From Candidatus Bathyarchaeia archaeon (GTDB lineage Archaea > Thermoproteota > Bathyarchaeia > 40CM-2-53-6), in the NCBI GenBank assembly GCA_035935655.1, contig DASYWW010000012.1, positions 15,618 through 79,617 of the forward strand: 64,000 bases of DNA, in the 5' to 3' direction. The notes below the pieces were generated by a model that did no database searches, had not been told where the DNA came from, and was given only the letters and a program-made list of their open reading frames with translations. Every line of letters starts with the position of its first letter. The stretch's first letter is position 1. The translations under genes were made by a program, and so were the position numbers. This document shows positions 6,000 to 20,479 of this stretch, piece after piece.

Positions 6000-7349
6000 T
6001 TGACCCTACCAGAGCAGAAATCTAGATTCTATGTCCCTAGCTCAATCAGACTGCTCCTTTCTCCGGGGGTCCGAGGACACACACTAATCTTCACCACACT
6101 CATGGCGTTCTTATTCGCAACCGCGTACGTTGGCGCGACGCTCGGCTTTGCACAAGCGTGGACGATCATCTTCATCGCGGGCGCAAGTACGACGGGAGTA
6201 TACCTGGTTCTCACCCCATTCGCTTTACTAGAAAAATTCAGAAGTCCAATTCTGTTCTCCAGAATGACCAGACGTGTCATCATACTCGTAATAGCATACG
6301 CGCCTATGATCGCCGGCATCGCGTACTGGATCCAACAGGCAGGATCTGTAGAAGCACTCCCAATATTCCCCGCGTTCATCATTATCTTCTACACGTGGAT
6401 TCTTCTTCAAGCCTACTTCATCGCCACACCTGTTTCCCAGCTCCTCGTCAAAGTAGAGAGAGGCCTAACGGGTGAAGGAAACGCGAGGAAGTTAATGAGG
6501 ACCCTCGGAATATCAACACTCTTCCTCCCCATCGCACCACTGACCTACGGAACATGGGCAATTTCAAACTGGCTAAGCGCGACCTACCGGAACGTTCAGG
6601 GCGCAACCGACAAGATAATCATCTGGACAATGATCGTGACGGTACTCCTCCTCGCAACCTACTTCTTCACCGCACTCTGGGGATGGAGGGTAATAGTACA
6701 GAAAAAACCACAAGCAGCGGTTTTCGCTGGCGGAACTTTTCTAGTTCTCTGGGGTTACCTACTATACCGAGCGACAACCATCGCGATCGGTTACATTACT
6801 CAAGACCAGCCATCAAATCCCCTTGCCGATAGCGGGTTGATGATAATATCTGTTATCGGCGCGATGCAGACGTTCGCAAGGAAGACGGCAAACCACCCCG
6901 ACAGACGTTTGAGCCGAATCCTACCCTTCTTAGTATTCGCCTTCGGCTCCGTCTACGCGGTCGCACAATTCTACTTTATCCTACGAGTACCAATAACCAG
7001 AATCGATCTCTCGATCATTGTTAACGCCACGGTATTCGCAGCTGGAATTTTCACAATGATGTTCCTTATACGAAGACATCTCGTGGCGGTAGAGTTGAAC
7101 GCTTACAAGGCCAAGATGGCCGGCCAAAACCCTAACGAGCCTTCCGGTGAGACCACGAGGCCCCATCGCTCATTATTCCGACTTCCGTGGAAGAAAGCGG
7201 CCGGAGCACCCGAACCCCAGCTGGAACAGCGGACAGATGAAACGCCTCAGAACGAATCAGTTCCCGAGCAGAATGAATCAGTTGCAGAGCCTGACGATAC
7301 AGTCGCCCAGCCAGCAGAAGAGGGTACAGACCCAGACCAGGATTACTAG
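6000..7349 (+). CDS. Polytopic membrane protein (about 10 predicted TM helices) with acidic repetitive C-terminal tail; function unknown
   Basis: Hydrophobic segments throughout; tail PQNESVPEQNESVAEPDDTVAQPAEEGTDPDQDY. Confidence 0.6.
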   Translation: MTLPEQKSRFYVPSSIRLLLSPGVRGHTLIFTTLMAFLFATAYVGATLGFAQAWTIIFIAGASTTGVYLVLTPFALLEKFRSPILFSRMTRRVIILVIAYAPMIAGIAYWIQQAGSVEALPIFPAFIIIFYTWILLQAYFIATPVSQLLVKVERGLTGEGNARKLMRTLGISTLFLPIAPLTYGTWAISNWLSATYRNVQGATDKIIIWTMIVTVLLLATYFFTALWGWRVIVQKKPQAAVFAGGTFLVLWGYLLYRATTIAIGYITQDQPSNPLADSGLMIISVIGAMQTFARKTANHPDRRLSRILPFLVFAFGSVYAVAQFYFILRVPITRIDLSIIVNATVFAAGIFTMMFLIRRHLVAVELNAYKAKMAGQNPNEPSGETTRPHRSLFRLPWKKAAGAPEPQLEQRTDETPQNESVPEQNESVAEPDDTVAQPAEEGTDPDQDY

Positions 7350-7403
7350 CTCTGGCTAAGCGATCGAAGCCTCTTTTTACCCGCGTGACTCAGTCGTTCT
7401 CGA

Positions 7404-8495
7404 ATGTCAACGGTTCAGCTAGCCCAAATCAAAGTTGACTCGAAGACTAACGCGATCCAATCCGAACTCCGGATCGGACAAATGCGGATTCCTCTCCCTA
7501 ATAGATTTCCTATCAGCCCTGAAAGAAACGCTCTCAAGCCGGCCGGTGTAAAGGATCCGTTACCTGGGGAGGTAGCTGTTCTCGCCAGGCTCGCACCGCC
7601 CAACACGATCAAGAGAATTCTAACCCAAGAGGATGCCCTGAAATCCACGGCACGATTCCTATCAAGAGAAACGAGCCCTGACGCTGCTCGCCTCCTCTAC
7701 CTCGCCTTCAAAGGTGGAGCCATGCTGAAGGACACTCAGGACCTCAAGACAATCCTGGATCTACAATATCTTGCCGGACTTGACATCATTACAGCTCAAC
7801 ATACAGTAGACATGTCTCCAGAGGATTTCGAGGGACAACTACGGTTTGCAGAAAAGTGGATGGAAGAGCGCGGCGTCGAGAAGCCGCTGATGCCGATTAT
7901 CCAAGCCACTGACAACAAGGACATCGCTGGACAACTCGTTAAGATTGTCGAGAGGCATGAGTCGGCTCAGATCGGGATTGACCTTCGAGGCGCCTTCCAC
8001 TACCACGCTCTTCGAATAATGGAGGAGTTCAAGAAGCGGAAACCCGAGGTCTGGCTGCATGCCTTCCAGGTACCACCTAAGATCCGATTGGGACGCAGCC
8101 CTATGCCTTGCAGCCAAGGAATGATCCTGCCTATGTTCAGCATAGACAGTTTCTCGAGATGGATTGTCCCGCCGCCCCCAACGCCTCTCACGAAAGAGGT
8201 CATCAATGTTTTCGATCGAAAGGGTTGGGGAGCTCTGAAAAAGAAAGACTATGAGGAGATAAGAGGAAACTCGACGAACTGCAACTGCGCCGTTTGCCAA
8301 GGGAAAGACCTAGAGCCATTCTACGAGGGCAAAGTCTTGGACGTGCTCGCAAAAGCAAAAGTCCACGACCACTTAGCCCAGAGAAAGGAGTTGGAATCCG
8401 CTAGGGCTTCCATCAAGAAGGGAGAATTCCTTTCACTCCTGAATTCGAAACAGTACCCCAAAGAATTTCTCAGACAGATCCCGAAAGAAGCATGA
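7404..8495 (+). CDS. Hypothetical protein with a TGT-family-like C-terminal zinc signature (possible tRNA-guanine-transglycosylase-fold / DpdA-like protein)
   Basis: 363 aa. C-terminal NCNCAVCQG-x20-VHDHL gives CxCx2C plus His at +23/+25, the spacing of the Zn site of queuine/archaeosine TGTs (CxCx2C-x~26-H followed by HNL). No recognisable N-terminal TGT motifs. Confidence 0.45.
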   Translation: MSTVQLAQIKVDSKTNAIQSELRIGQMRIPLPNRFPISPERNALKPAGVKDPLPGEVAVLARLAPPNTIKRILTQEDALKSTARFLSRETSPDAARLLYLAFKGGAMLKDTQDLKTILDLQYLAGLDIITAQHTVDMSPEDFEGQLRFAEKWMEERGVEKPLMPIIQATDNKDIAGQLVKIVERHESAQIGIDLRGAFHYHALRIMEEFKKRKPEVWLHAFQVPPKIRLGRSPMPCSQGMILPMFSIDSFSRWIVPPPPTPLTKEVINVFDRKGWGALKKKDYEEIRGNSTNCNCAVCQGKDLEPFYEGKVLDVLAKAKVHDHLAQRKELESARASIKKGEFLSLLNSKQYPKEFLRQIPKEA

Positions 8496-8559
8496 ATAGT
8501 TCAATCGGCGGTCTTATAGCCAAGAGGCTATCAAGGGCGCATGCGCAAGGTCGAGTAGG

Positions 8560-9030
8560 TTGATCCAAACTCCGACTTGGGTTCAAGACGTCTTCGATCG
8601 CTACCTGATCTGTGAATTCACTTCGATAGATAACGGAAAGCCCGTGACATTTCCCCTACTCTTCTTCTACGACAATAACCCACCCAAGTTCGCCGTAACA
8701 TCTAGCATACTGTTCTCGCGAAAGATCGAACATATGAAGAAAAACCCGAAGGTCTCGCTTCTCTTCTCTAACCCCGAAGGCAGTGGAATAGAGAAGCATG
8801 TAGTCCTCGTCCAAGGCGTTGCGAAATGCGATGATTCTGACCTCGACCATGGATGGGAGAGGTATCTTCCCATGTGGCGGAAGAAGGAGCCTTACATCGA
8901 CGGATTCCTTGCGGCCCGGGAGCGGTTCAGCTGGTTCTGGAAAAGAATTGTAGTCGAAATAGAACCGAAGAAGATTCTGGCATGGAAGAACGGAGACACA
9001 TCCAAACCCGCGGAGGCAATCAAGGTTTGA
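8560..9030 (+). CDS. Pyridoxamine 5'-phosphate oxidase-like FMN-binding split-barrel protein
   Basis: 156 aa; KKNPKVSLLFSNPEG...HVVLVQGVA pattern typical of the PNPOx-like/general-stress-26 family. Confidence 0.65.
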   Translation: MIQTPTWVQDVFDRYLICEFTSIDNGKPVTFPLLFFYDNNPPKFAVTSSILFSRKIEHMKKNPKVSLLFSNPEGSGIEKHVVLVQGVAKCDDSDLDHGWERYLPMWRKKEPYIDGFLAARERFSWFWKRIVVEIEPKKILAWKNGDTSKPAEAIKV

Positions 9031-9434
9031 CAACCTCAAATCTTGTTGACCTTGATAGGGTATCATCGTTCAGATACGGCGTAGTCACATGGATAGACAA
9101 AGATGGGTTCCCCTTTAGCGTCGCGACAGACTTTCTTCTGTCCGAGAATGGTGAGATTCTTCTGAAGAAACCCAGCCCTCCCGCAACAATCATGGGGGCT
9201 CGTGTTGGGGTTCTCTTCAACCACATAACCGGGATCCCAACGGGCGGCTACACTGACCGCCGCTACATGCTGGTATGGGGCACAGTGAGCGAGGATAAGG
9301 GATTCCTGAAACTGCATCCAGAAGAGGTCTCCGAGTGGGACGAGAAAATACTACCTTTCGACAAGCTGTGTGAGGCCGCTGTGCCACAAGCAAAGAGGTA
9401 CCTAGGGAGTCTTCAGCCTTCCATCGACGCCTGA
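9027..9434 (+). CDS. Second PNPOx-like split-barrel protein (start uncertain; TTG at 9027 overlaps the previous stop)
   Basis: VTWIDKDGFPFSVATDFLLSENGEILL resembles the PNPOx motif TVDxDGrPhvvPvwf. The track ORF 8853-9434 runs in a different frame over the 3' end of the previous gene, so the real start is probably near 9027-9060. Confidence 0.5.
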   Translation: MTTSNLVDLDRVSSFRYGVVTWIDKDGFPFSVATDFLLSENGEILLKKPSPPATIMGARVGVLFNHITGIPTGGYTDRRYMLVWGTVSEDKGFLKLHPEEVSEWDEKILPFDKLCEAAVPQAKRYLGSLQPSIDA

Positions 9435-10030
9435 TCCTCTTCAACAGGCTTGCTACTCTCTGCCGCTTGTGCCTTAGATTCGGCAAGGAGCATCATTAGG
9501 CTTGGGAGATCCAGTTCAGCACGGGTCCTCCAACCCAGCTTGACAAGACCTTCCTCGTCCTCTTCAAGATAACCAGATCGGAGAAACGTGTCCATTAGGG
9601 TCAGTGCTCTCCAACGCCCCGCCTTATTGCCGATGACCGTTTCCAATTCCTTCCTCTCGCTCTTCCCTTGTTTCGATACTACAAGCGCCAAAGCGGCGGC
9701 TAAGGCGGCGAGATTGTCGATTCTCCAGCCGCAAAGTCTCGCTTCCTTCGGAGTGAGAGTTCCCTTGAGACGGACGAAATATCGGGATTCTTCTTCCCCG
9801 TCGCTTGGTAGAGGTTTGTAATCGGAGAGAGACTGTGGTTCTACCTTCTTGATTTCGAGGTCCAAGTCTTTCAACCCCTCATCTAGCTGCTCTAGGACCT
9901 TCGTGTACCCTTTTCCGAGCCCCGTTTTCAACTCCCAAGACCGAGCACCTGGTACTCTCCCTCGTTTGAAGAAGAGGATGTGTGCTGCCCGCTTGACCTT
10001 TTCATGGTAGTAGGTTGGCTCGTTTTTCAC
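9413..10030 (-). CDS. scpB: ScpB-like protein (tandem winged-helix, KITE-type partner)
   Basis: IDNLAALAAALALVVSKQGKSERKELETVIGNKAGRW...GYLEEDEEGLVKLGWRTRAELDLPSL parallels the ScpB second WH motif (LSxAALETLAIIAYxQPiTRxEIExIRGV...GLIxExGR...TTxxFLxxFGLxSLxDLP). 4-bp overlap with the upstream gene. Confidence 0.5.
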   Translation of the reverse strand: MKNEPTYYHEKVKRAAHILFFKRGRVPGARSWELKTGLGKGYTKVLEQLDEGLKDLDLEIKKVEPQSLSDYKPLPSDGEEESRYFVRLKGTLTPKEARLCGWRIDNLAALAAALALVVSKQGKSERKELETVIGNKAGRWRALTLMDTFLRSGYLEEDEEGLVKLGWRTRAELDLPSLMMLLAESKAQAAESSKPVEEDQASMEG

Positions 10031-10827
10031 TTCGCCCGTATCAAAGCCTCCTTTGTTATGGGGATGGGAAAGCTGAGTGCCGATCCTTCTTGGCGGAGCT
10101 CAGGTCTTGCTTTCGGCACTAGTAGCATACTAGTCCCCTTCCGTTGCAAGTTTGCATATCCATAGCTGACAAGAAAGCTGACAAGTTGCGCTCGGGTGAT
10201 AGTGGCAGCGAAGTCGGTCCCCGTGATGAAATTCCAGTAATCCACCTTCCGATCTTCATCGGCTCTGTCCTTGAGCTCCTTCCAGAGATCCTGCATTTTT
10301 CTTGTGTAAGCCTTCTCTTCGACTATGCGCGTCCGAGCCAGTTCCCCCAAATTGGCGATACCAGGGTTGTCGAAGGGTCCGAGATGAAGCCTCTTTCTTC
10401 GCTCGAAGAAGGAGAGCATCTTATCCCAGAATTCCTTAGCTTCTTTTGTCGAAGCGAGAGTAAGTTGCTCGAGCTCTACTATCGGATGCCATGACAGGAG
10501 GAGAAACTCTGCCAATTGTTCTCTCGAAAGGGAATCAAGCTTCTGCTTCACCATAGCAGGATCGACGAAGAGAGCGCTGGACTGGAATCTGAGATTTGCG
10601 CTTTGCAATCCTACGACTCTAGCCACGCTCGTGATGGCACGCATGTCCAGTAGGTGGTCATCCAGCGTCCTCAACTGGTTCGAGTAGCGTCTAATGATAC
10701 GAAGTGCTTCGGTGATATCCAGAAGGAAGGGACTGAACCTGCGGTTCTCTATCGAGATACATGTCTGAACCAGTTCCTCCAGTTCCCGTCTGCCGGATAA
10801 TCGATGGACCTTCTCCGTCGTGGTCAT
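10027..10827 (-). CDS. scpA: ScpA-like kleisin
   Basis: 266 aa. The N-terminus RRFSPFLLDITEALRIIRR resembles FxGPLDLLLxLI. The C-terminus TDFAATITRAQLVSFLVSYGYANLQRKGTSMLLVP resembles the ScpA WHD (TFLALLELxKxGxIxL). Start and stop overlap the neighbours by 4 bp each. Confidence 0.5.
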   Translation of the reverse strand: MTTTEKVHRLSGRRELEELVQTCISIENRRFSPFLLDITEALRIIRRYSNQLRTLDDHLLDMRAITSVARVVGLQSANLRFQSSALFVDPAMVKQKLDSLSREQLAEFLLLSWHPIVELEQLTLASTKEAKEFWDKMLSFFERRKRLHLGPFDNPGIANLGELARTRIVEEKAYTRKMQDLWKELKDRADEDRKVDYWNFITGTDFAATITRAQLVSFLVSYGYANLQRKGTSMLLVPKARPELRQEGSALSFPIPITKEALIRAK

Positions 10828-12887
10828 GCGATCTCCTTAACCATTGAACTACCCTCGACGTTCTGGACTACGATGACATGGACATTGTCCTCGGGAAGGG
10901 TCACCTGTCCAGGGGTTATCGCAATGTACTGGCTTGAATCGGTGGCTCGTGATGCAGCGTGAATGAGCTTGGATACGGTTTCCCTGTTTCGCGGGTCCAT
11001 GTGAACGTCGAATTCGTCGATTGCTCGGAAAGGAGACGAGATGAACTGTTGTAGGGAAAGTAGAAATGCGATCAGTGCAACAGTCCGCTCGCCGCCACTT
11101 GGAGCTAGACCGTCCAGCGATACTGGTTCGTTTCCTTTGAATCCTGCATAGAGTTCAAGCCCTGCTTTTTCAATATCTTTGGAGGCTTTGATAACGACTC
11201 GTCCATTTGATCCAACTTCAGACAGTAGCGTGTTGTATCTTGCGGAGAGATCCTCCAGCAGCTTGTCCATGACCAGTTTCCATCGGTCAAACCGATCTCT
11301 CAGTTCGCCGAGAACTTCCGACCTGTTGTGCTCCACCACCTCGGCTTTCTTCTTTAAATCCTCGTAAAGCTCTCCATAGCTCTTGTACATCTTCTCGACT
11401 TCAGCCGAGAGATGAGCTAACGGGCGTAATCGTTCCTGAACGGAAGCGACATCTGGTGAAATCTGTTGGAGGTCTCTAGGACTCTCAAAGACTGGTCCCA
11501 GCTGAGAGGCCTGTGTTCGAAGGGGACCGATTTCATCTTCGCCAATCCGAAGTTGGACCTCGAGTTCTTGAACCTCCTGTTCCATTAATGCAAGCTTGAA
11601 GTTGCTGACCTCTTTCTTGACTCTGGACTCTATGAGAAGGTCGGTATTCTTGCTGAGTTGCGAGGTTAAGTCGGAAATGCCTGTGCGCACTTTCTCGAAG
11701 TCCTGCTCCGCGGTCTTTGCAGTGTTCGAAATTCGCTCCTGCTCGCCGCCAAGATCCGACAACACTTGGCTAAGTTGATTGCTCTCAGACGAGACGCTCA
11801 CATCGGGAGCCCTTTGCTGAAGCGAGGTCAGATAGTGCTGCTGTGTTCTGAGGAGGTCAGTGGCTTTTGAGATCCATTCTAGTGCGCCTGCTCGAAGCCC
11901 TCGACCATGTTCAAGTTTCAGATGTTCTTCCCTAAGTCCCTCAAGTTCTTCGGAGACTTTAGCGAGGTCGATAAGGACTTGTTGGTGTTGTTTATGAGAT
12001 GTTTCAAACTCCTCTCTCGTTTCATCTATCTTGGCGTGAAGGGAAGAGATTCTGTCTTTCACACGTTTTTGTGAGGATTCTCTTCTGATAATGCGTCTCC
12101 AGAGGAGTTCTCTCTGAAGGTCCTTCCACTGATCCTCGAGTTTCCTTTTCAACTCATATTTCTCGTATTCCCGCTGCCAATGCAAATACGTCTCCCTCGT
12201 GCCCTCCAGGACCGAAGACATTGTCTCCCGTTCAGTTGTGAGTTTCTGTAATCGAGAGGAAGCGTCGAGCACTTCCCGGCGATACGCTCCAAATCCTACG
12301 GCATCTTCCAAGAGAAGAAGCTTGTCAATTGGGCTCACCGAACCGAATCGTCCGACCATAAGCTGGTGCATTATCACAAGCATGTTGTCAGGGTTGAGTC
12401 CTATTCTGGAAAGTCCTTCGACCAGGTTTGTCTTACTGATTGGTTTGTTGTTTAGCAAGTAGTGGTAATCTCCAGATCTCTTGAGGACTCGGGTGAGGAG
12501 GACCTTGTCTGATCTGGCTTGTGGAAATGGTCGAGCCCCTTTCGGGGCTTCGTTGTCTAGTAGAAGTGAAATGCGGGCTTCTTGTTCATTCCAGCGTATC
12601 AGCTCGCTGAGCTTTTTGGCGCGCTCTGTGTATGCTTGGCCCAAGACGACGCTTATTGCTAGGAGTATGGATGATTTTCCTGCGCCGTTGGGTCCTATGA
12701 TCAGGTTTAGGCCTGGTCGGAGTGGAATGCTGGTGTTCTTGTAGGACATGAAGTTTGAGAGTTGGACTTCGCGGATCAATTTCCGACAAGCAGCCTTGTT
12801 GTTGGAGAGTATGGGCCTGGCTGAATTAGAAGTCTTTCTCGTCCAATCAATGTTTATATACGCGATTTGGCATTTTTCGCCTTTCAT
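10824..12887 (-). CDS. SMC-family ATPase, unusually short (687 aa) and apparently hinge-less
   Basis: N-terminal IREVQLSNFMSYKNTSIPLRPGLNLIIGPNGAGKSSILLAISVVLGQ (Walker A). C-terminal LSGGE-type signature PSGGERTVALIAFLLSLQ plus Walker B DEFDVHMD. The centre is continuous heptad-rich coiled coil with no glycine-rich hinge block and no CxxC zinc hook. Confidence 0.8.
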   Translation of the reverse strand: MKGEKCQIAYINIDWTRKTSNSARPILSNNKAACRKLIREVQLSNFMSYKNTSIPLRPGLNLIIGPNGAGKSSILLAISVVLGQAYTERAKKLSELIRWNEQEARISLLLDNEAPKGARPFPQARSDKVLLTRVLKRSGDYHYLLNNKPISKTNLVEGLSRIGLNPDNMLVIMHQLMVGRFGSVSPIDKLLLLEDAVGFGAYRREVLDASSRLQKLTTERETMSSVLEGTRETYLHWQREYEKYELKRKLEDQWKDLQRELLWRRIIRRESSQKRVKDRISSLHAKIDETREEFETSHKQHQQVLIDLAKVSEELEGLREEHLKLEHGRGLRAGALEWISKATDLLRTQQHYLTSLQQRAPDVSVSSESNQLSQVLSDLGGEQERISNTAKTAEQDFEKVRTGISDLTSQLSKNTDLLIESRVKKEVSNFKLALMEQEVQELEVQLRIGEDEIGPLRTQASQLGPVFESPRDLQQISPDVASVQERLRPLAHLSAEVEKMYKSYGELYEDLKKKAEVVEHNRSEVLGELRDRFDRWKLVMDKLLEDLSARYNTLLSEVGSNGRVVIKASKDIEKAGLELYAGFKGNEPVSLDGLAPSGGERTVALIAFLLSLQQFISSPFRAIDEFDVHMDPRNRETVSKLIHAASRATDSSQYIAITPGQVTLPEDNVHVIVVQNVEGSSMVKEIA

Positions 12888-14471: not shown

Positions 14472-14515
14472 ATATGACATACGTTATAGCGCGCGAGCTA
14501 GATGACGTATGTCAT
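14472..14515 (+). promoter_or_regulatory. Perfect 12-bp inverted repeat TATGACATACGT-n20-ACGTATGTCATA enclosing the predicted ATG (14509) of the rhodanese gene; the spacer contains a nested TAGCGCGCGAGCTA palindrome
   Basis: Read directly from the sequence. The right arm contains the start codon ATGTCATAC. Confidence 0.4.
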
Positions 14516-15384
14516 ACGCACACCCCGAAGTATTAGTGAGTAGCGACTGGGTGCAGGAACATCTCAACGATCCGAAAGTGAGAGTCGTCGAGGTTGACTA
14601 TGACTCGGTTGCGAACTATCAGCTGGGACACGTTCCCGGCGCGGTCCTCTTCGACTGGAAGAAGGACCTCAACCACCCCCTCGAAAGAGACATCCTATCG
14701 AGACAACAGCTAGAGCAACTATTTGCAAGATCTGGAATTACCCCAGACACCAAGATAGTCCTATACGGCGACTTCAACAACTGGTTCGCAGCCTACGCCT
14801 TCTGGGACCTACAATACTACAACGTCAAGAACGTCGTACTAATGAACGGAGGCCGGAAAAAATGGATCGACGAAGACAAACCCCTGACCAAAGACATCCC
14901 AACCTACCCAAGCGCAAACTACAAGGCCTCAGGACCCGATGAAAGCGTCAGAGTCTACTTCAAACAAGCTCTCGACCTCTACCGGAGACCCAACGTGAAA
15001 CTCGTCGACGTCAGAGGACCAAAAGAATTCACAGGCGAAGTCCTAGCACCACCAGAGTACCCGACAGAGCACGCGCAACGTGGAGGCCACATACCTGGAG
15101 CAGTCAACATTCCATGGTCCCATGCCGTCCGAGAAGACGGCACCTTCAAAAGCCCAGACGAACTGAAGAAGCTATACGAGGATAAGGGCATCGTCGCCGG
15201 CCGAGACATTGTGACCTACTGCCGCATCGGCGAAAGATCCTCGTTCACCTGGTTCGTGCTAAAGTACCTCCTCGGCTACCCCAACGTGCGAAACTACGAC
15301 GGGTCATGGACCGAGTGGGGGAACCTAGTGCGAAACCCTATCGAGAAACCAAGCCCGTCGATAGCCCAACCCGTTTCAGCATAA
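14509..15384 (+). CDS. Thiosulfate/3-mercaptopyruvate sulfurtransferase (tandem rhodanese domains)
   Basis: 291 aa, two rhodanese modules; catalytic loop YCRIGERSS (CRxGx[R/T]) in the C-terminal domain; N-terminal LVSSDWVQEHLNDPKVRVVEVD. Confidence 0.85.
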   Translation: MSYAHPEVLVSSDWVQEHLNDPKVRVVEVDYDSVANYQLGHVPGAVLFDWKKDLNHPLERDILSRQQLEQLFARSGITPDTKIVLYGDFNNWFAAYAFWDLQYYNVKNVVLMNGGRKKWIDEDKPLTKDIPTYPSANYKASGPDESVRVYFKQALDLYRRPNVKLVDVRGPKEFTGEVLAPPEYPTEHAQRGGHIPGAVNIPWSHAVREDGTFKSPDELKKLYEDKGIVAGRDIVTYCRIGERSSFTWFVLKYLLGYPNVRNYDGSWTEWGNLVRNPIEKPSPSIAQPVSA

Positions 15385-15434
15385 GGAAATGCACCAACAA
15401 CTCTCTTCCTTTCCCCCTTTTTCGTGCTTTGATG

Positions 15435-16100
15435 TCAGAGTGCTTTCCGCACGATGAAGTGGAAGAGGTTTCCTTCCTGCCGCCAGTCAACTAACTCGTG
15501 ACCGGTCTGGTCCGTCCAACGCACCATCTCCACGTAAGAGGTGGGATCATCGGTCACAAGATGAACAACATCTCCTATTGGAACTGTCGCGAGAAGCTCG
15601 TTTAGACGGACCAGAACGGCAGAACACTCCATCCCAATCTCAACCATCTCGTGGTCAGGAAAGGCCTTGAAACAACGAGCGTGAAATTCGGCAATTCTTC
15701 TCCGGAAAGTCTCTGTCGCACCCGACGCCCCTGATAGGAGGGCCTTCTCTGACTTGAGACTCGATGGTTTCAGCCTGACAATCCATCCATCAGTATATGG
15801 TGCGTCGTTGAGAAGTTTCGGTCTCTTGATGATATCACCGTTTACCGCGGAAATGAGCCCTGAAGCGGGCGATCGAATAGGACCAACGAATTTCAGACTT
15901 TCAAGGGTACCCAAGCTTCTACCTCGCTCGATTCGTGATCCCGCAGGCCGCAGGCGAGCAGAAGTGAATTTTCCCGCGATCGCGGAGAGAAGACTCGTCA
16001 CGCCGACAGTTATCTCACCGCTTCTTTCACTCGTTATCCAAGTGTTGCCTTCCAGATCGTACATGAGACCGTCGGGGAAACTGCAATGATCTATCTCCAA
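15435..16100 (-). CDS. Fusion protein: N-terminal glycine-cleavage-H-like lipoyl-carrier domain + C-terminal TusA-like domain
   Basis: N-half: GNTWITSERSGEITVGVTS...GTLESLKFVGPIRSPASGLISAVNGDI...NDAPYTDGWIVRLK has the GcvH signature including the lipoyl-lysine context ESLK. C-half: VEIGMECSAVLVRLNELLATVPIGDVVHLVTDDPTSYVEMVRWTDQTGHELVDWRQEGNLFHFIVRK parallels TusA (LDxrGLxCPxPvlktkkalxxlxxGevLeVlaTDpgaxxDipaWaxxtGHeLl...yrflIrK), but with CS in place of CP. Confidence 0.6.
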   Translation of the reverse strand: MEIDHCSFPDGLMYDLEGNTWITSERSGEITVGVTSLLSAIAGKFTSARLRPAGSRIERGRSLGTLESLKFVGPIRSPASGLISAVNGDIIKRPKLLNDAPYTDGWIVRLKPSSLKSEKALLSGASGATETFRRRIAEFHARCFKAFPDHEMVEIGMECSAVLVRLNELLATVPIGDVVHLVTDDPTSYVEMVRWTDQTGHELVDWRQEGNLFHFIVRKAL

Positions 16101-16212: not shown

Positions 16213-19200
16213 TTGCCCCGTTTCAAGAGTTCAGCGGACATTCTAAAGATCGTCTCCAACAAGGACCAGATACGCAACATAGGCATCATCGCCCACGTGG
16301 ACCACGGGAAATGTGTCGACGGTGAAAGTATGATTACCCTATCCGATGGGCGGATAGAAGAGATTGCCCAAATCTACGAGAAGCTGAGAAGAAAAGGCCC
16401 TTCAATGGCTCAAGTTGACTCGCTGAATCCCCGGACCCTCAAGATGGAAGACCGGAACGTCTCACACGTCTGGAAACTACACAGCAACAAGCTAGTCAAG
16501 GTTACCCTTAGGAACGGCTACTCTGTGGAGACGACACCAGAGCATCCATTCTTCACAATAGCAAAGGATGGAATAGTCAGGCAGAAGAGGGCAGACGGGA
16601 TTAAGAGAAATGACTTGGTGCTCGTTCCGAACACCCTACGCTCCATCCCAAGTAGAATGGAAGAAATAAAGTCCGAAATCTTGGAAGTGATGAGTTCTCA
16701 TCAGTATTACATCGTCTATCTAGAAGGAAGGTTCTCCGAAGAACTTGAGCGACTGGTTAACGACAAGGGAATGAAGCAGGTTTATTCCAGCCTCCGATCA
16801 AATTCTTCGTTCAAGGCCTTCAGAGCGGGACTCGCCCTTGGTAGAATCAGACTAGACGATCTGGTAAAAATCACAGATTCGCTCAGAATACCCAGGGACC
16901 GCGTCTATGATCACATACGCCGAATGGCATACCGGCTAAGCCGTGCCAAGCCCGGCAGGCTTTCAAACCTAATCAAACTGCCACGAACTCGGAAGCAATT
17001 CCAGGATCTGGCTTACCTTCTTGGTGTCCTTTGGGGTGATGGTTCTAACCGGGCTAGCTTCAACAACGGGTACGGGCCGCTTCTGGAGACCGTTTCCCAA
17101 ATTTTTCAGAGAGTTTTCGGGGTCAGCACAATCCTCGTGAAGGACAAGAGAAGAAACACCTATCGGCTCGATCACCACGGTGGTTTCAGCCTCATCAGAT
17201 TCCTCGAAGACACCTACCAGTACCCCACAAAGCACAAGGCCCACAATATTGTCTTTCCCAAGTTGGTCCTCAAGATGGGAAACGAACACGTCGCTGCGTT
17301 CCTCAGAGGGGAATTTGATACAGACGGTGGGGTTGAAAGGACTAGCGCCGTAATTTCCCTAACAACTGCCAGTCGAAAGTTTGCAAGACAAGTATCAATC
17401 TCTTTGCTGAGATTCTCGATCATTCCAACAATCCGCCAGAAAGGAAAATACTTCACAATAACAGTATCAGGGCACGATACTCTGAGGTTTGAGAAGACAA
17501 TCGGATTTACCATTCCAAGAAAGCGTGTGGCGCTGCATATTCTCGCTCGCAAAGCGGTGAGCAGCAGAAAGACTGGAATTGTTCCTATCGGCTGGCAGAC
17601 TCTCCGGGAAATTAGGAACCAACTGGGGATTCCCTCTTCATATTTGGAATCCAAAATCCCATTTTACTGCAGCTACGAGTCAGGCAGGCAAAACCTCACA
17701 AGGCCGATCTTCCAAAGCCTCGTTAGCGCTTTTGAAAAGTTCATTGCGTCAAGGCCTTCGAAAGATACCGCCTTCACCCTAGTGCGCGAATGGCGCAAGC
17801 TTCTCGAGGGAGAGATTCGACCTATCCCGGTAAGTGAGATAGGGACACGTACCGGTTCATTCGACGTTTACGACCTGACAGTTCCAGAGAATCACACGTT
17901 CATCGCTAACGGTATAGTCGTCCACAACACTACGATGACGGATAGTCTCTTGTCTGGTGCCGGATTGCTTTCGCCGTCTTTGGCTGGCACAGCTCTGGCC
18001 ATGGACTTTATGGAGGAGGAGCAGAAGCGCCAGATGACTATCAAGGCTGCAAACGTCAGTCTCTATTACGAGCATAACGACATGCCTTTCGTCATCAATC
18101 TCATCGATACTCCCGGTCACGTGGACTTTTCGGGCAAGGTTACTAGATCACTACGCGCTATTGATGGAGCGGTCGTTGTCGTCGACTCCGTTGAAGAAGT
18201 GATGGTTCAGACAGAGACGGTGACGCGACAAGCGCTCGAGGAGCGTGTCCGGCCCGTTCTTTACATTAACAAGATTGACCGTTTGATCAAGGAGCTGAAG
18301 CTCAATCCTGAACAGATACAGGAAAGGGTCGCACGGATAATCAAGGACTTCAACGCCCTCCTCGATCTCTACGCTGAGCCCGAGTTCCGAGAGAAGTGGA
18401 AGGTAAACTTCGCGACCAATACCGTGGCGATGGGCTCAGCCAAGGACAGATGGGGCTTCAACGCTGTTGTCGCCAAGAAGAAAGGAGTCAAGTTCTCCGA
18501 CGTAGTCGACGCTTACGTTAACGGGAAGGTGGAGGAGCTCAAGAATAGAGCCCCCATTCACGAGGCCATCCTCGGAATGGCAGTAGAGGTAATGCCTCCG
18601 CCGCACAAAGCGCAGGTCTACAGGATTCCGAAGATCTGGCATGGAGACCCAGACAGCGAGTATGGCCAGGCTATGATCAAGTGCGACGACAAGGGCCCGG
18701 TACTAATGTCCGTCACCAACATCGTTGTCGACCCGCAGGCTGGCGTGGTTGCGACTGGTCGCCTGTTCTCAGGTACGGTCACGGATGGAGAGCCTGTCTT
18801 TCTGATCAACTCGCGCACCCAGGGAAGGGTCCAGCAAGTTGCCATATACATGGGACCGCAACGGGAGATTGTCGGACATCTTAGCGCAGGTAACATTCCC
18901 GCGCTTCTTGGACTAGAGAACGTGAAGGCAGGAGAAACCCTCGCCTCTGTGAAGCAATTCGTCCCCTTCGAAGCAGTCCACTATGTCACTGAGCCAGTTG
19001 TCACCATAGCGGTGGAACCGAAGTACAACAGAGATCTTCCCAAGCTGGTTGAGATCTTGAGAAAGCTCTCGCTGGAAGATCCGAACCTTGTGACGAGCAT
19101 CAACGAGGAAACTGGCGAATACCTGATCTCTGGTATGGGCACGCTTCACCTTGAGATTGCAAATACTCTGATCACCAAGACTGGAATGGAGATTGTCACC

Positions 19201-20019
19201 TCTAAGCCCATTGTCATCTATCGAGAGGCGGTGCGGAGGGAAGCGGGTCCGGTTGAGGGTAAATCTCCGAACAAGCACAACAAGATCTACATTGAAGTCG
19301 AACCCCTCGAAGATGCTGTTTTGGATCTGATCAAGCAGGGTAAGCTCAGCGAGTATGGTGACAAAGCCGAGATGGCCAAGCTCCTTCGAGGAGTAGGATG
19401 GGAGCCTGAGGAGGCTCGTGGAGTATGGAGCATCGACGAACCCTTCAACATGATCTTGGACGTCACCAAGGGAGCGCAGTACGTGCAAGAGGTGAAGGAC
19501 ATGATATTGGCCGGATACAGGTGGGGAATCAAGGAAGGTCCAATTGCTTACGAACAGATTCGAGGGTTGAAGGTCAAGATTAGCGACGTCAGTCTTCACG
19601 AAGACCCTGTCCACAGGGGTCCGGCACAGATCATGCCGATGACTCGTCGAGCAATGTTCGTGGCCTTCCTGGAAGCCGCGCCGACATTACTGGAGCCAGT
19701 TCAGAAGATTACGACTCGCGTTCCGAATGAGCTATTGGGGGCCGTGACCAGTGTGATTACACAGAAGCGTGGAAAGATTGTGTCAGTCGACCAGAAGGGA
19801 CACTTGGTCTCCGTAGTTGGAGAGATGCCAACCGCCGAAAGCTTCGACTTGTCTGAGGTCATGAGGAGTCAGACCCAGGGACGAGCGTTCTGGGGTTTGG
19901 AGTTCGCTCGATGGTCGCCTGTTCCTACTTCTTTGTTGCAAACGGTTGTTGAGGGCATAAGAAAGCGAAAGGGACTCTCTCTCGAGCCGCCGAAAGCGTC
20001 CGACTTCATGGAAGCTTAG
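16213..20019 (+). CDS. fusA: Translation elongation factor 2 (aEF-2) precursor interrupted by a 539-aa intein in the P-loop
   Basis: Extein: IRNIGIIAHVDHGK | intein | TTMTDSLLSGAG, then the G domains (NLIDTPGHVDF, NKIDR) and domains II-V, with the diphthamide-site HRG (DPVHRGPAQI). Extein total is about 729 aa, normal for aEF-2. Confidence 0.95.
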   Translation: MPRFKSSADILKIVSNKDQIRNIGIIAHVDHGKCVDGESMITLSDGRIEEIAQIYEKLRRKGPSMAQVDSLNPRTLKMEDRNVSHVWKLHSNKLVKVTLRNGYSVETTPEHPFFTIAKDGIVRQKRADGIKRNDLVLVPNTLRSIPSRMEEIKSEILEVMSSHQYYIVYLEGRFSEELERLVNDKGMKQVYSSLRSNSSFKAFRAGLALGRIRLDDLVKITDSLRIPRDRVYDHIRRMAYRLSRAKPGRLSNLIKLPRTRKQFQDLAYLLGVLWGDGSNRASFNNGYGPLLETVSQIFQRVFGVSTILVKDKRRNTYRLDHHGGFSLIRFLEDTYQYPTKHKAHNIVFPKLVLKMGNEHVAAFLRGEFDTDGGVERTSAVISLTTASRKFARQVSISLLRFSIIPTIRQKGKYFTITVSGHDTLRFEKTIGFTIPRKRVALHILARKAVSSRKTGIVPIGWQTLREIRNQLGIPSSYLESKIPFYCSYESGRQNLTRPIFQSLVSAFEKFIASRPSKDTAFTLVREWRKLLEGEIRPIPVSEIGTRTGSFDVYDLTVPENHTFIANGIVVHNTTMTDSLLSGAGLLSPSLAGTALAMDFMEEEQKRQMTIKAANVSLYYEHNDMPFVINLIDTPGHVDFSGKVTRSLRAIDGAVVVVDSVEEVMVQTETVTRQALEERVRPVLYINKIDRLIKELKLNPEQIQERVARIIKDFNALLDLYAEPEFREKWKVNFATNTVAMGSAKDRWGFNAVVAKKKGVKFSDVVDAYVNGKVEELKNRAPIHEAILGMAVEVMPPPHKAQVYRIPKIWHGDPDSEYGQAMIKCDDKGPVLMSVTNIVVDPQAGVVATGRLFSGTVTDGEPVFLINSRTQGRVQQVAIYMGPQREIVGHLSAGNIPALLGLENVKAGETLASVKQFVPFEAVHYVTEPVVTIAVEPKYNRDLPKLVEILRKLSLEDPNLVTSINEETGEYLISGMGTLHLEIANTLITKTGMEIVTSKPIVIYREAVRREAGPVEGKSPNKHNKIYIEVEPLEDAVLDLIKQGKLSEYGDKAEMAKLLRGVGWEPEEARGVWSIDEPFNMILDVTKGAQYVQEVKDMILAGYRWGIKEGPIAYEQIRGLKVKISDVSLHEDPVHRGPAQIMPMTRRAMFVAFLEAAPTLLEPVQKITTRVPNELLGAVTSVITQKRGKIVSVDQKGHLVSVVGEMPTAESFDLSEVMRSQTQGRAFWGLEFARWSPVPTSLLQTVVEGIRKRKGLSLEPPKASDFMEA
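16312..17928 (+). mobile_element. Intein with LAGLIDADG homing-endonuclease domain inserted between GK and TT of the EF-2 G1 motif
   Basis: Starts CVDGESMITLSDG (block A), TxxH block SVETTPEHPFF, two LAGLIDADG blocks (LAYLLGVLWGDGS, AAFLRGEFDTDGGV), terminal SFDVYDLTVPENHTFIANGIVVHN followed by a +1 Thr. 1617 nt, in frame. Confidence 0.85.
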
Positions 20020-20356: not shown

Positions 20357-20479
20357 GCGGCCGTGGTCCAGAGTCAGCGCTCAACTGCGAGGTTGACGGG
20401 CAGCCTGGTCTATGACACCGGCTTCCCATTACCATGGAAAGAGCCGGGAACCCGGGTTCGAATCCCGGCGGCCGCACCA
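20357..20479 (+). tRNA. tRNA-Gly(CCC) requiring two introns: about 33 nt in the D-arm (non-canonical position) and 13 nt after position 37; CCA encoded
   Basis: Acceptor GCGGCCG/CGGCCGC. T-arm CCGGG-TTCGAAT-CCCGG. Discriminator A then CCA (20476-20479). Anticodon arm CCGGC-TTCCCA[ttaccatggaaag]A-GCCGG. A D-arm GTCA-GCCTGGTCTA-TGAC is obtained only if 20369-20401 is removed. The spliced product is 77 nt. Confidence 0.55.

What the first reader, a model, noticed from the sequence alone, without database searches (positions are those of the whole stretch)
14509..16100. Sulfur-relay module: tandem rhodanese convergent with a GcvH-like/TusA-like fusion gene
The 221-aa protein combines a lipoate-carrier GcvH-type domain (lysine in ESLK context) with a TusA-fold domain in which the usual CPxP Cys is presented as ECSAV. 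Lipoate-binding GcvH-like proteins (LbpA) together with TusA and rhodaneses are the sulfur carriers feeding the sHdr-type sulfur oxidation system. A single-polypeptide LbpA-TusA fusion next to a sulfurtransferase would be a compact, possibly undescribed, persulfide relay, or a lipoyl-protein sulfur-insertion helper.
Basis: partly seen in the sequence, partly recalled or inferred. Interest (0 to 1): 0.6.

Follow-up and report, generated by a model that had tools for sequence, protein, structure and literature searches.

The report
Archaeal rhodanese plus GcvH-like–TusA sulfur relay
A thiosulfate sulfurtransferase gene sits next to a gene fusing a GcvH/LbpA-like domain to a TusA sulfur-carrier domain; the pair is conserved in hundreds of uncultured archaea and probably passes sulfur along three invariant cysteines, not along a lipoate arm as first proposed.

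Summary
Window 14509-15384 (+) encodes a two-domain rhodanese with a single Cys in a CRIGERS loop. Window 15435-16100 (-) encodes a 221-aa GCV_H + TusA fusion, and both folds are confirmed (AF2 pLDDT 93, pTM 0.83).

- **Distribution:** the fusion is not unique. It occurs in 264 species-representative genomes (the 80 listed are Bathyarchaeia, Thermoplasmatota and Nitrososphaeria) and already carries automatic two-domain labels. I found no paper describing it.
- **Gene pairing:** the rhodanese is the only neighbour conserved across lineages. It is present in 58 of 81 loci and lies directly upstream in 5 of 5 informative divergent fusions.
- **Lipoate reading is undermined:** the "lipoyl" Lys70 swaps with Arg or Thr (K44/R35/T3, at least 16 independent changes). 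Cys143 and Cys159 never change, and Cys6 is present wherever the N-terminus is called. Cys6 and Cys143 match the two-Cys signature that separates LbpA from GcvH.
- **Context:** no sHdr, DsrE, lipoate-ligase or glycine-cleavage genes lie in the window, and none recurs around orthologs. The surroundings are housekeeping genes; one Nitrososphaeria subclade has Elp3 directly upstream.

Best reading: a lipoate-independent, cysteine-based sulfane-sulfur relay, probably biosynthetic. It is a new variant of a known kind, of moderate interest. The function is inferred, not shown.

The parts
14509..15384 (+). Two-domain rhodanese / thiosulfate sulfurtransferase (291 aa)
   Evidence: Pfam Rhodanese x2. 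phmmer against PDB gives 1UAR, Thermus thermophilus rhodanese, at E=7e-109, followed by M. tuberculosis CysA2/SseA-type TSTs. Orthologs at 60-93% identity lie next to the fusion across lineages.
15220..15222 (+). Codon of Cys238, the only Cys of the rhodanese, in the active-site loop C-R-I-G-E-R-S
   Evidence: The CRIGERS motif is kept in 51 of 52 full-length orthologs. It fits the CRxGx[R/T] thiosulfate-sulfurtransferase loop quoted in PMC11094781.
15435..16100 (-). GcvH/LbpA-like + TusA fusion gene (221 aa, TTG start, TGA stop at 15435-15437)
15684..16100 (-). N-terminal GcvH/LbpA-like domain (about aa 1-139), ending in the C-terminal helix 125-139
   Evidence: Pfam GCV_H 17-125. Foldseek H-protein TM 0.93-0.94. 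Secondary structure.
16083..16085 (-). Codon of Cys6 (the N-terminal 'LbpA-type' Cys; motif x-C-x-F-P-D)
   Evidence: Present in every ortholog whose N-terminus is called (71/71) and in 32 of 33 cluster representatives. pLDDT about 92 in the deep model.
15891..15893 (-). Codon of Lys70, at the position of the GcvH lipoyl-lysine hairpin (T-L-E-S-L-K-F-V-G-P)
   Evidence: It aligns with the lipoyl-Lys position of GcvH (my alignment to the E. coli GcvH sequence recalled from memory; Pfam GCV_H match). It is not conserved: K44/R35/T3 with at least 16 changes.
15672..15674 (-). Codon of Cys143 (the C-terminal 'LbpA-type' Cys, in the linker motif R-C-F-K-A-F-P-D)
   Evidence: Invariant in 82/82 and 32/33. 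It is lost together with Cys6 in the one exception, P0166.
15438..15683 (-). Linker plus TusA-fold domain (aa 140-221)
   Evidence: Pfam TusA 156-219. Foldseek 3lvj_C/3lvk_B TM 0.88-0.90. The TusA-type D184-D185-P motif is conserved.
15624..15626 (-). Codon of Cys159, the TusA active-site Cys at the N-cap of helix 159-172 (motif I-G-x-E-C-S-A-V-L in place of CPxP)
   Evidence: Invariant in 33/33 and 82/82. Helix position.

Best explanation
This is a two-gene archaeal sulfane-sulfur relay that works through cysteines and does not need lipoate.

Step 1 (inferred from family membership): the two-domain rhodanese takes a sulfane sulfur from thiosulfate or another persulfide/polysulfide donor onto its single Cys238 in the CRIGERS loop.

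Step 2 (inferred from the conserved gene pairing and from published rhodanese-TusA transfer): the sulfur passes to Cys159 of the TusA domain of the fusion protein.

Step 3 (inferred from conservation only): the two LbpA-type cysteines, Cys6 and Cys143, handle that persulfide. They sit in the GcvH-like domain and the linker of one rigid two-domain body. Either they relay the sulfur onward to a client, or they act as resolving thiols.

The GcvH-like hairpin keeps a basic residue (Lys or Arg) but is not an obligatory lipoylation site.

The module stands alone among housekeeping and translation-related genes. I therefore think it most likely supplies sulfur for biosynthesis, for example thiolated tRNA or cofactors, in archaea whose sulfur donor is unknown. 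I think it less likely to feed dissimilatory sulfur oxidation. The downstream acceptor is not identified.
For: Architecture and folds. Rhodanese family and active-site loop.

Gene pairing: a rhodanese ortholog lies within 10 kb, on the opposite strand, in 58 of 81 loci from Bathyarchaeia, Thermoplasmatota and Nitrososphaeria. It is mostly less than 110 bp away. It lies directly upstream on the same strand in P0132, P0149, P0155, P0166 and P0176 at 28-38% identity. It is the only neighbour conserved across lineages.

Cysteines: C143 and C159 show 0 changes in 82 sequences, and C6 is present whenever the N-terminus is called. C6 and C143 are lost together in the single exception, P0166. C6/C143 match the published LbpA-specific two-Cys signature (PMC6067878).

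Lysine: K44/R35/T3 with at least 16 independent changes.

Related contexts: a stand-alone TusA lies next to a single-domain two-Cys relative (L085). P0132 sits in Rhd > fusion > DsrE-like > TusA > cysteine desulfurase (L086). Rhodanese-to-TusA sulfur exchange has been shown experimentally for other proteins (PMC11094781).

Housekeeping setting. Elp3 lies directly upstream in 8 Nitrososphaeria loci, and a DsrE-DsrH-DsrE trio is present in L091. Reviews state that the archaeal sulfur donor for s2U34 and the intermediate carriers are unknown (PMC5372739) and that Tum1/TtuD rhodaneses serve this role elsewhere (PMC8584467).
Against: There is no biochemical evidence of any kind. The Sγ-Sγ distances among the three Cys could not be measured, because the structure tool returns no coordinates. 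In the deep model the linker around C143 is coil, and the N-terminal segment forms beta-bridges whose partners I cannot see. A C6/C143/C159 cluster is therefore an assumption.

The biosynthetic or tRNA role rests on lineage-specific synteny (8 loci of one subclade; DsrEFH-like in only one locus) and on generic housekeeping neighbours. Whole-genome co-occurrence with sHdr, lipoate ligases, NcsA/SAMP/UbaA or cysteine desulfurases could not be tested.

In the main lineages the two genes are convergent, so they are not co-transcribed. 23 of 81 loci show no rhodanese within reach. Many of those are short contigs, but several Thermoplasmatota loci have an ADH-like gene in that position instead.

The window protein itself does have Lys70, so lipoylation of this particular member is not excluded.
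Confidence: 0.5

Rival explanations
1. One reading: a genuine lipoylated LbpA fused to TusA. The dihydrolipoyl arm on Lys70 receives sulfur from the rhodanese or TusA and presents it to an sHdr-type sulfur-oxidising complex encoded elsewhere in the genome.
For: Lys70 is present in this protein, in an E-S-x-K hairpin. The domain has the LbpA two-Cys signature. TusA, rhodanese and LbpA are known partners in sHdr systems. The closest single-domain relatives keep the Lys in 57 of 66, and one sits next to an SQR/FCSD-like flavoprotein. Dihydrolipoate is a known rhodanese acceptor (cited in PMC6067878).
Against: The Lys is replaced by Arg or Thr in 38 of 82 orthologs, with at least 16 independent switches, including close relatives at 58-65% identity. 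LbpA Lys is strictly conserved. No sHdr, DsrE, sLpl or LipS genes lie in the 64-kb window or recur in about 90 loci. In archaea, sHdr is reported for Sulfolobus/Acidianus-type Thermoproteota and some Thermoplasmatota. The Thermoplasmatota type II systems there are described as having DsrE3B as their only sulfur transferase.
Confidence: 0.1
2. A thiosulfate or persulfide disposal (or sulfide-generating) couple. The rhodanese cleaves thiosulfate to sulfite and passes the sulfane sulfur to Cys159. Cys143 and/or Cys6 then attack as resolving thiols, releasing H2S and leaving a disulfide that thioredoxin re-reduces. This would be a protein-built equivalent of thiosulfate:dithiol sulfurtransferase, used for sulfur assimilation from thiosulfate or for detoxifying reactive sulfur species.
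For: The same conservation data apply as for the best explanation. The rhodanese is of the CysA2/SseA type, and I recall from memory (not checked here) that this type is linked to thiosulfate use. A second Cys that resolves a persulfide into a disulfide is an established mechanism in ThiI (PMC5372739). The TusA domain resembles YeeD/TsuB of the thiosulfate uptake system (8j4c).
Against: No thioredoxin or thioredoxin-reductase, sulfite-handling or thiosulfate-transporter gene is a conserved neighbour. The data do not distinguish this from an onward relay.
Confidence: 0.2
3. The three invariant cysteines, perhaps with Glu158, Asp149 or His214, bind a metal such as Zn or an Fe-S cluster. The metal staples the two domains together or performs redox or sulfur-insertion chemistry. 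In that case the TusA Cys is a ligand and not a persulfide carrier.
For: Three invariant Cys are accompanied by near-invariant E158, D149, H180 and H214 in the main clades. The canonical CPxP motif is replaced by E-C-[SA]-A. The confident rigid two-domain model (pTM 0.83) is compatible with a shared site. Three-Cys Fe-S sites are common in archaeal thiolation enzymes.
Against: C6 and C143 are both dispensable in P0166, which reverts to canonical CPGP and still keeps its rhodanese. The His and acidic candidates are not conserved in the divergent fusions. Single-domain LbpA proteins carry the same two Cys without a TusA domain.
Confidence: 0.1
4. It is simply the organism's glycine-cleavage H protein with an accessory domain, as several database names imply ('glycine cleavage system H protein').
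For: Pfam GCV_H hit and H-protein fold. Source names. A GcvT-like gene lies about 2.6 kb away in 10 Thermoplasmatota loci.
Against: The protein scores below both NCBIfam GcvH cutoffs (82.8 against 117; 64.6 against 115.85). The lipoyl-Lys is not conserved. No gcvT or gcvP lies in the window. The conserved partner is a rhodanese.
Confidence: 0.03

Closest known systems
[quoted passage not shown] 2018, PMC6067878)
   Same: GcvH fold. One Cys near the N-terminus and one near the C-terminal end of the domain, which GcvH lacks. A functional neighbourhood of TusA and rhodanese-type sulfur transferases. The fusion's N-terminal domain scores slightly higher against a profile of two-Cys single-domain relatives than against a Cys-less profile (97 of 112 cases, about 10 bits).
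   Different: The lipoyl-Lys is not conserved (K/R/T). The domain is covalently fused to TusA. No sHdr, sLpl(AB) or LipS genes are nearby. The hosts are Bathyarchaeia, soil Thermoplasmatota and Nitrososphaeria, none of which is among the sulfur oxidisers named in the sHdr papers I read.
TusA / YeeD (TsuB) sulfur-carrier proteins
   Same: The same alpha/beta fold (TM 0.88-0.90 to E. coli TusA). The Cys sits at the N-cap of helix 1. The D-D-P motif is conserved. The protein is partnered with a sulfurtransferase.
   Different: CPxP is replaced by E-C-[SA]-A-[VI] in most members. The domain is preceded by a conserved R-C-F-x-A-F-P-D linker that carries a second invariant Cys. It is part of a rigid two-domain protein. 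It scores below the NCBIfam TusA equivalog cutoff (20 against 78 bits).
Tum1 (eukaryotes) and TtuD (Thermus) rhodaneses, and the E. coli TusA-TusBCD-TusE relay for tRNA 2-thiouridine
   Same: A rhodanese plus small carrier proteins move persulfide sulfur towards wobble-U thiolation. In one Nitrososphaeria subclade the module lies between Elp3 and GatDE, and once lies next to a DsrE-DsrH-DsrE trio.
   Different: No orthology to Tum1 or TtuD was tested. The link is synteny in one subclade only. The archaeal thiolation machinery (NcsA, SAMP2, UbaA) is not adjacent.
Two-domain thiosulfate sulfurtransferases of the 1UAR / M. tuberculosis CysA2-SseA type
   Same: The window rhodanese aligns end to end with 1UAR (E=7e-109) and has the CRxGxR-type loop.
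   Different: Nothing notable in the enzyme itself. What is particular is its conserved pairing with the GcvH-like-TusA fusion in archaea.

Membership tests
GcvH (glycine cleavage H protein) | H-protein fold | tested here: met
   Foldseek TM 0.93-0.94, rmsd about 1.1 A to 3ab9/1onl/1htp. Pfam GCV_H E=1.8e-27.
GcvH (glycine cleavage H protein) | Invariant lipoyl-lysine in the hairpin | tested here: not met
   Lys70 is present in this protein, but the position is K44/R35/T3 in 82 orthologs with at least 16 changes, and R19/K11/other 3 in 33 representatives.
GcvH (glycine cleavage H protein) | Reaches the curated equivalog score | tested here: not met
   NCBIfam PRK01202 82.8 bits (cutoff 117). 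TIGR00527 64.6 bits (cutoff 115.85).
GcvH (glycine cleavage H protein) | Association with gcvT and gcvP | tested here: not met
   None in the 64-kb window. A GcvT-like gene occurs in only 10 of 81 loci, all in one lineage.
LbpA (sHdr-associated lipoate-binding protein) | Strictly conserved lipoate-attachment lysine (PMC6067878) | tested here: not met
LbpA (sHdr-associated lipoate-binding protein) | Two conserved Cys, one N-terminal and one C-terminal, that are absent from GcvH | tested here: met
   C6 and C143 are invariant or near-invariant.
LbpA (sHdr-associated lipoate-binding protein) | Encoded in or next to shdr clusters, with sLpl(AB)/LipS maturation genes | tested here: not met
   Absent from the window and from +/-6-10 kb of about 90 related loci. 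Whole-genome presence could not be tested.
LbpA (sHdr-associated lipoate-binding protein) | The protein is actually lipoylated | not testable with these tools
   Needs mass spectrometry of native or ligase-treated protein.
TusA | TusA two-layer alpha/beta fold | tested here: met
   3lvj_C TM 0.88, rmsd 1.3 A over 73 columns; 3lvk_B TM 0.90. Pfam TusA 41.2 bits, above the cutoff of 28.6.
TusA | Conserved sulfur-binding Cys at the N-terminus of helix 1 | tested here: met
   C159 is invariant in 33/33 and 82/82. The helix starts at residue 159.
TusA | CPxP motif around that Cys (PMC11094781) | tested here: not met
   This protein has E-C-S-A-V. The family is mostly E-C-[SA]-A-[VI]. CPGP or CPET occurs only in a few divergent members: P0132, P0166, P0137, P0154, P0165.
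TusA | Persulfide binding and transfer activity | not testable with these tools
   Needs in vitro loading and mass spectrometry.
Two-domain rhodanese / thiosulfate sulfurtransferase | Tandem rhodanese domains with the catalytic Cys in a CRxGx[R/T] loop of the C-terminal domain | tested here: met
   Pfam 2 stretches. C238 in CRIGERS, kept in 51 of 52 orthologs. 1UAR E=7e-109. The score is below the NCBIfam 3-MST equivalog cutoff (137.8 against 250), so it is not filed as 3-mercaptopyruvate sulfurtransferase.
Tum1/TtuD-type tRNA-thiolation rhodanese | Orthology to Tum1 or TtuD, and a requirement for s2U formation | not tested
Only context evidence exists.

The most novel reading that the evidence does not exclude
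The fusion is a lipoate-free descendant of LbpA. In it, the two LbpA-specific cysteines together with the TusA cysteine form a self-contained three-thiol relay. With its dedicated thiosulfate sulfurtransferase, this relay would be the missing entry point ('S-donor?') that feeds sulfur into archaeal tRNA wobble-uridine thiolation and other thio-cofactor syntheses in mesophilic Bathyarchaeia, Thermoplasmatota and Nitrososphaeria. It would also show that the LbpA cysteines have a sulfur-carrying role independent of lipoate.
Probability: 0.15. Interest if true: 0.8.

Novelty: new variant of a known kind. Interest (0 to 1): 0.5.

Why it matters
1. Annotation. Many copies are named 'glycine cleavage system H protein'. 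Metabolic reconstructions of Bathyarchaeia, Thermoplasmatota and Nitrososphaeria that count this gene towards glycine cleavage or the reductive glycine pathway are probably wrong.

2. Mechanism. The family is a natural experiment that separates the two LbpA-specific cysteines, which are kept, from the lipoyl-lysine, which is dispensable. It gives a way to test what those cysteines do. I found no test of this in the literature I searched.

3. Physiology. A rhodanese-carrier module conserved in 264 archaeal species representatives and sitting among housekeeping genes is a concrete candidate for the unidentified sulfur donors and intermediate carriers in archaeal thio-modification (PMC5372739).

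Everything beyond the architecture and the conservation is inference.

Tried and rejected
- **Cys-Cys distances.** The structure tools return only pLDDT and secondary structure, with no coordinates. My early inference of a 143-146/152-155 hairpin placing C143 beside C159 came from the low-confidence model. The confident model did not reproduce it, so I dropped it.
- **First genome scan.** The scan with the 31-sequence divergent alignment failed for lack of a conserved stretch. I repeated it with a narrower alignment, so the 264-genome count is biased towards relatives that share the two patterns used.
- **Cultured host.** A second homolog search and cluster look-ups returned only MAG or metagenome records with no strain names.
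- **Elp3/DsrEFH link.** Tested as a general feature, it holds only for 8 loci of one Nitrososphaeria subclade, and for 1 locus respectively. I keep it as a hint only.
- **Co-occurrence of the two Cys in single-domain relatives.** The association is positive but noisy (20 both, 30 neither, 24 one only; the set includes fragments).
- **Profile test, LbpA-like against Cys-less GcvH-like.** The difference is only about 10 bits, and both profiles were built from hits to the query. This is weak evidence.
- **Literature searches for a described GcvH/LbpA-TusA fusion.** Nothing relevant turned up. The 2019 TusA review by Tanabe, Leimkühler and Dahl (recalled from memory) did not turn up in these searches, and I did not read it.
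- **Is T. thermophilus 1UAR the same protein as TtuD?** The papers I read did not settle this.
Full report
**1. What is there**

The window is archaeal, about 51% GC. NCBI holds the exact proteins from a Candidatus Bathyarchaeia MAG on a 244-kb contig.

At 14509-15384 (+) lies a 291-aa protein with two Rhodanese stretches. It aligns end to end with Thermus thermophilus rhodanese 1UAR (E=7e-109) and then with M. tuberculosis CysA2/SseA-type thiosulfate sulfurtransferases. Its only cysteine, C238, sits in the loop CRIGERS.

Fifty bases downstream, on the other strand, 15435-16100 encodes a 221-aa protein. It has Pfam GCV_H at residues 17-125 (E=1.8e-27) and TusA at residues 156-219 (E=1.5e-10). 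NCBI annotates the same gene model.

A first AF2 model from a shallow alignment was mediocre (pLDDT 74). With 91 sequences it became confident (pLDDT 93.4, pTM 0.83, N-terminal block pLDDT 92). Foldseek matches the N-terminal domain to H-proteins (TM 0.93-0.94, rmsd about 1.1 A) and the C-terminal domain to E. coli TusA (TM 0.88-0.90, rmsd 1.3-1.8 A). No PDB chain covers both domains.

**2. How widespread it is**

The word-indexed search found 971 relatives. The top 120 all have the two-domain architecture, and several carry JGI's automatic name 'glycine cleavage system H lipoate-binding protein/TusA-related sulfurtransferase'.

The exhaustive search of 50%-identity representatives gave 32 full-length fusion clusters that I aligned, down to 28% identity. 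Below them came many single-domain GcvH-like proteins of about 145 aa.

A scan of one genome per species found 264 genomes encoding a relative. The 80 loci returned are labelled Bathyarchaeia, Thermoplasmata/Methanomassiliicoccales/'Methanobacteriota EA' and Nitrososphaeria. Three carry bacterial labels, which I take to be mis-binned contigs.

I found no cultured host and no paper describing the fusion.

**3. The lysine is not conserved; three cysteines are**

Among 121 close homologs, position 70 is K111/R9/N1, although its neighbours are invariant. Among 33 cluster representatives it is R19/K11/T,V,S.

Among 82 orthologs from genomes it is K44/R35/T3:

| Lineage | K | R | T |
|---|---|---|---|
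| Bathyarchaeia | 17 | 14 | 0 |
| Thermoplasmatota | 22 | 12 | 3 |
| Nitrososphaeria | 4 | 8 | 0 |

(The other two sequences, on contigs with bacterial labels, have one K and one R.)

On a neighbour-joining tree this needs at least 16 independent changes.

By contrast, C143 and C159 never change. C6 is present in every sequence whose N-terminus is called.

The single representative that lacks C6 also lacks C143, and it has a canonical TusA CPGP motif (P0166).

Cao et al. 2018 define LbpA by a strictly conserved lysine plus two strictly conserved cysteines, one N-terminal and one C-terminal, that GcvH lacks. The fusion therefore has the LbpA cysteine signature but fails the lysine criterion.

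The closest single-domain relatives mostly keep the Lys (57 of 66). About half of them have the N-terminal Cys, and some end in G-C or CxxC. The fusion's N-terminal domain scores slightly better against a two-Cys profile than against a Cys-less profile (97 of 112 cases, about 10 bits; weak evidence).

**4. Context**

The rhodanese is the only neighbour conserved across lineages. An ortholog at 60-93% identity lies within 10 kb, on the opposite strand, in 58 of 81 loci, and it is usually less than 110 bp away. Many of the loci without it are short contigs.

In the divergent fusions at 28-38% identity the rhodanese is directly upstream on the same strand. This holds in all five cases with readable flanks: P0132, P0149, P0155, P0166 and P0176. 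P0132 sits in a cluster of rhodanese > fusion > DsrE-like > TusA > cysteine desulfurase.

A single-domain two-Cys relative lies just downstream of a stand-alone TusA. Another lies with two more GCV_H genes and an SQR/FCSD-type flavoprotein.

The 64-kb window holds housekeeping genes and nothing related to sHdr, DsrE, lipoate attachment or glycine cleavage:
- Translation and transcription: EF-2 (with an intein), TFB, Gar1, diphthamide synthase.
- RNA and protein turnover: exosome, proteasome, SBDS.
- DNA metabolism: an SMC-like ATPase, FEN1, DNA ligase.
- Metabolism and transport: acetyl-CoA synthetase (ACS), ECF and peptide transporters.

None of those sulfur or lipoate genes recurs in related loci either.

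In eight loci of one Nitrososphaeria subclade the order is Elp3 > fusion, then the convergent rhodanese, then GatD > GatE. One of these loci adds a DsrE-DsrH-DsrE trio upstream of Elp3. This is suggestive of a tRNA-modification connection, but it is lineage-specific.

**5. Interpretation**

The conserved pairing with a thiosulfate-type rhodanese, the invariant TusA cysteine and the LbpA-type cysteine pair point to a cysteine-based sulfane-sulfur relay. The proposed path is rhodanese C238 to TusA C159 to C143/C6, in which lipoate is dispensable.

Rhodanese-to-TusA sulfur exchange has been shown for other proteins (PMC11094781). A second cysteine that resolves a persulfide is known from ThiI (PMC5372739).

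The stand-alone, housekeeping setting and the host range make a biosynthetic role more likely than dissimilatory oxidation. I cannot exclude an sHdr system elsewhere in these genomes.

I could not measure the relative positions of the three cysteines, and I withdrew an early hairpin-based proximity argument. The rivals are thiosulfate:dithiol-type sulfide release, a metal site, a truly lipoylated LbpA-TusA, and a plain GcvH. They are listed separately with confidences.

**6. Comparison and novelty**

The parts are all known kinds: a two-domain TST, TusA, and an LbpA/GcvH fold. The new aspects are:
- the covalent LbpA-like-TusA fusion as a rigid body;
- the degeneration of the lipoyl-lysine while the LbpA cysteines are retained;
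- the non-CPxP TusA motif and the conserved R-C-F-x-A-F-P-D linker;
- the family-wide pairing with one rhodanese type, outside any sHdr cluster, in three major uncultured archaeal groups.

Databases already display the architecture, and no literature analysis was found. I rate it a new variant of a known kind with moderate interest (0.5). Function rests on inference.

Noticed in passing
window 16213-20019 (+): The EF-2 gene encodes 1268 aa because an intein with a LAGLIDADG homing-endonuclease domain (about residues 41-572) is inserted in the GTP-binding P-loop region (AHVDHGK|C...HN|TTMTD). Orthologous EF-2 genes in related Bathyarchaeia loci (L001, L060) are 728-729 aa and have no intein.
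   Followed up: partly
window 20357-20476 (+): Rfam finds a tRNA of 120 nt (40.9 bits), while ARAGORN in its default mode finds no tRNA anywhere in the window. The length suggests an intron-containing archaeal tRNA.
   Followed up: no
window 9413-12887 (-) and 6000-9434 (+): An SMC/Rad50-like ATPase (687 aa) is followed by two genes (266 and 205 aa) with no Pfam hit, and several neighbouring ORFs (449, 363, 193 aa) also have none. The SMC-like gene and the two genes that follow it are syntenic in related Bathyarchaeia (L001, L002, L006). This could be an uncharacterised SMC-like complex.
   Followed up: no
L082 5759-8904 (also L083, L084): The closest single-domain relative of the fusion (P0169, C-terminal CxxC) lies in a cluster with two further GCV_H-like genes, an SQR/FCSD-type flavoprotein and a 201-aa protein with no Pfam hit. 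This could be an uncharacterised sulfur-oxidation or persulfide-handling cluster.
   Followed up: no
L088 13336-15845: In the archaeon carrying the divergent fusion P0149, a eukaryote-like ubiquitin / E2 (UQ_con) / E1 (ThiF) / RING-finger cluster lies about 5 kb from the rhodanese-fusion operon.
   Followed up: no
L010, L020, L054: Contigs labelled as bacterial MAGs (Dormiibacterota, Methylomirabilota, Acidiferrales) carry fusion and rhodanese genes 44-65% (fusion) and 66-80% (rhodanese) identical to the archaeal ones. They are probably mis-binned archaeal contigs.
   Followed up: no
window 23332-24894 (-); L093 1-93: A 520-aa protein with a nitroreductase domain lies about 7 kb from the module in the window. 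It sits next to the PTPS, RibD_C and GTP cyclohydrolase II genes. A 525-aa nitroreductase-domain protein also lies about 8 kb from the divergent fusion P0176. This may be coincidence.
   Followed up: no
L019-L034 and other Thermoplasmatota loci, immediately downstream of the fusion: In 21 loci, mostly soil 'EA'/Thermoplasmata, a Zn-dependent alcohol-dehydrogenase-like gene (about 340 aa) takes the convergent position that the rhodanese holds elsewhere. MOSC-domain, RidA-like and GYD-domain genes recur nearby.
   Followed up: partly
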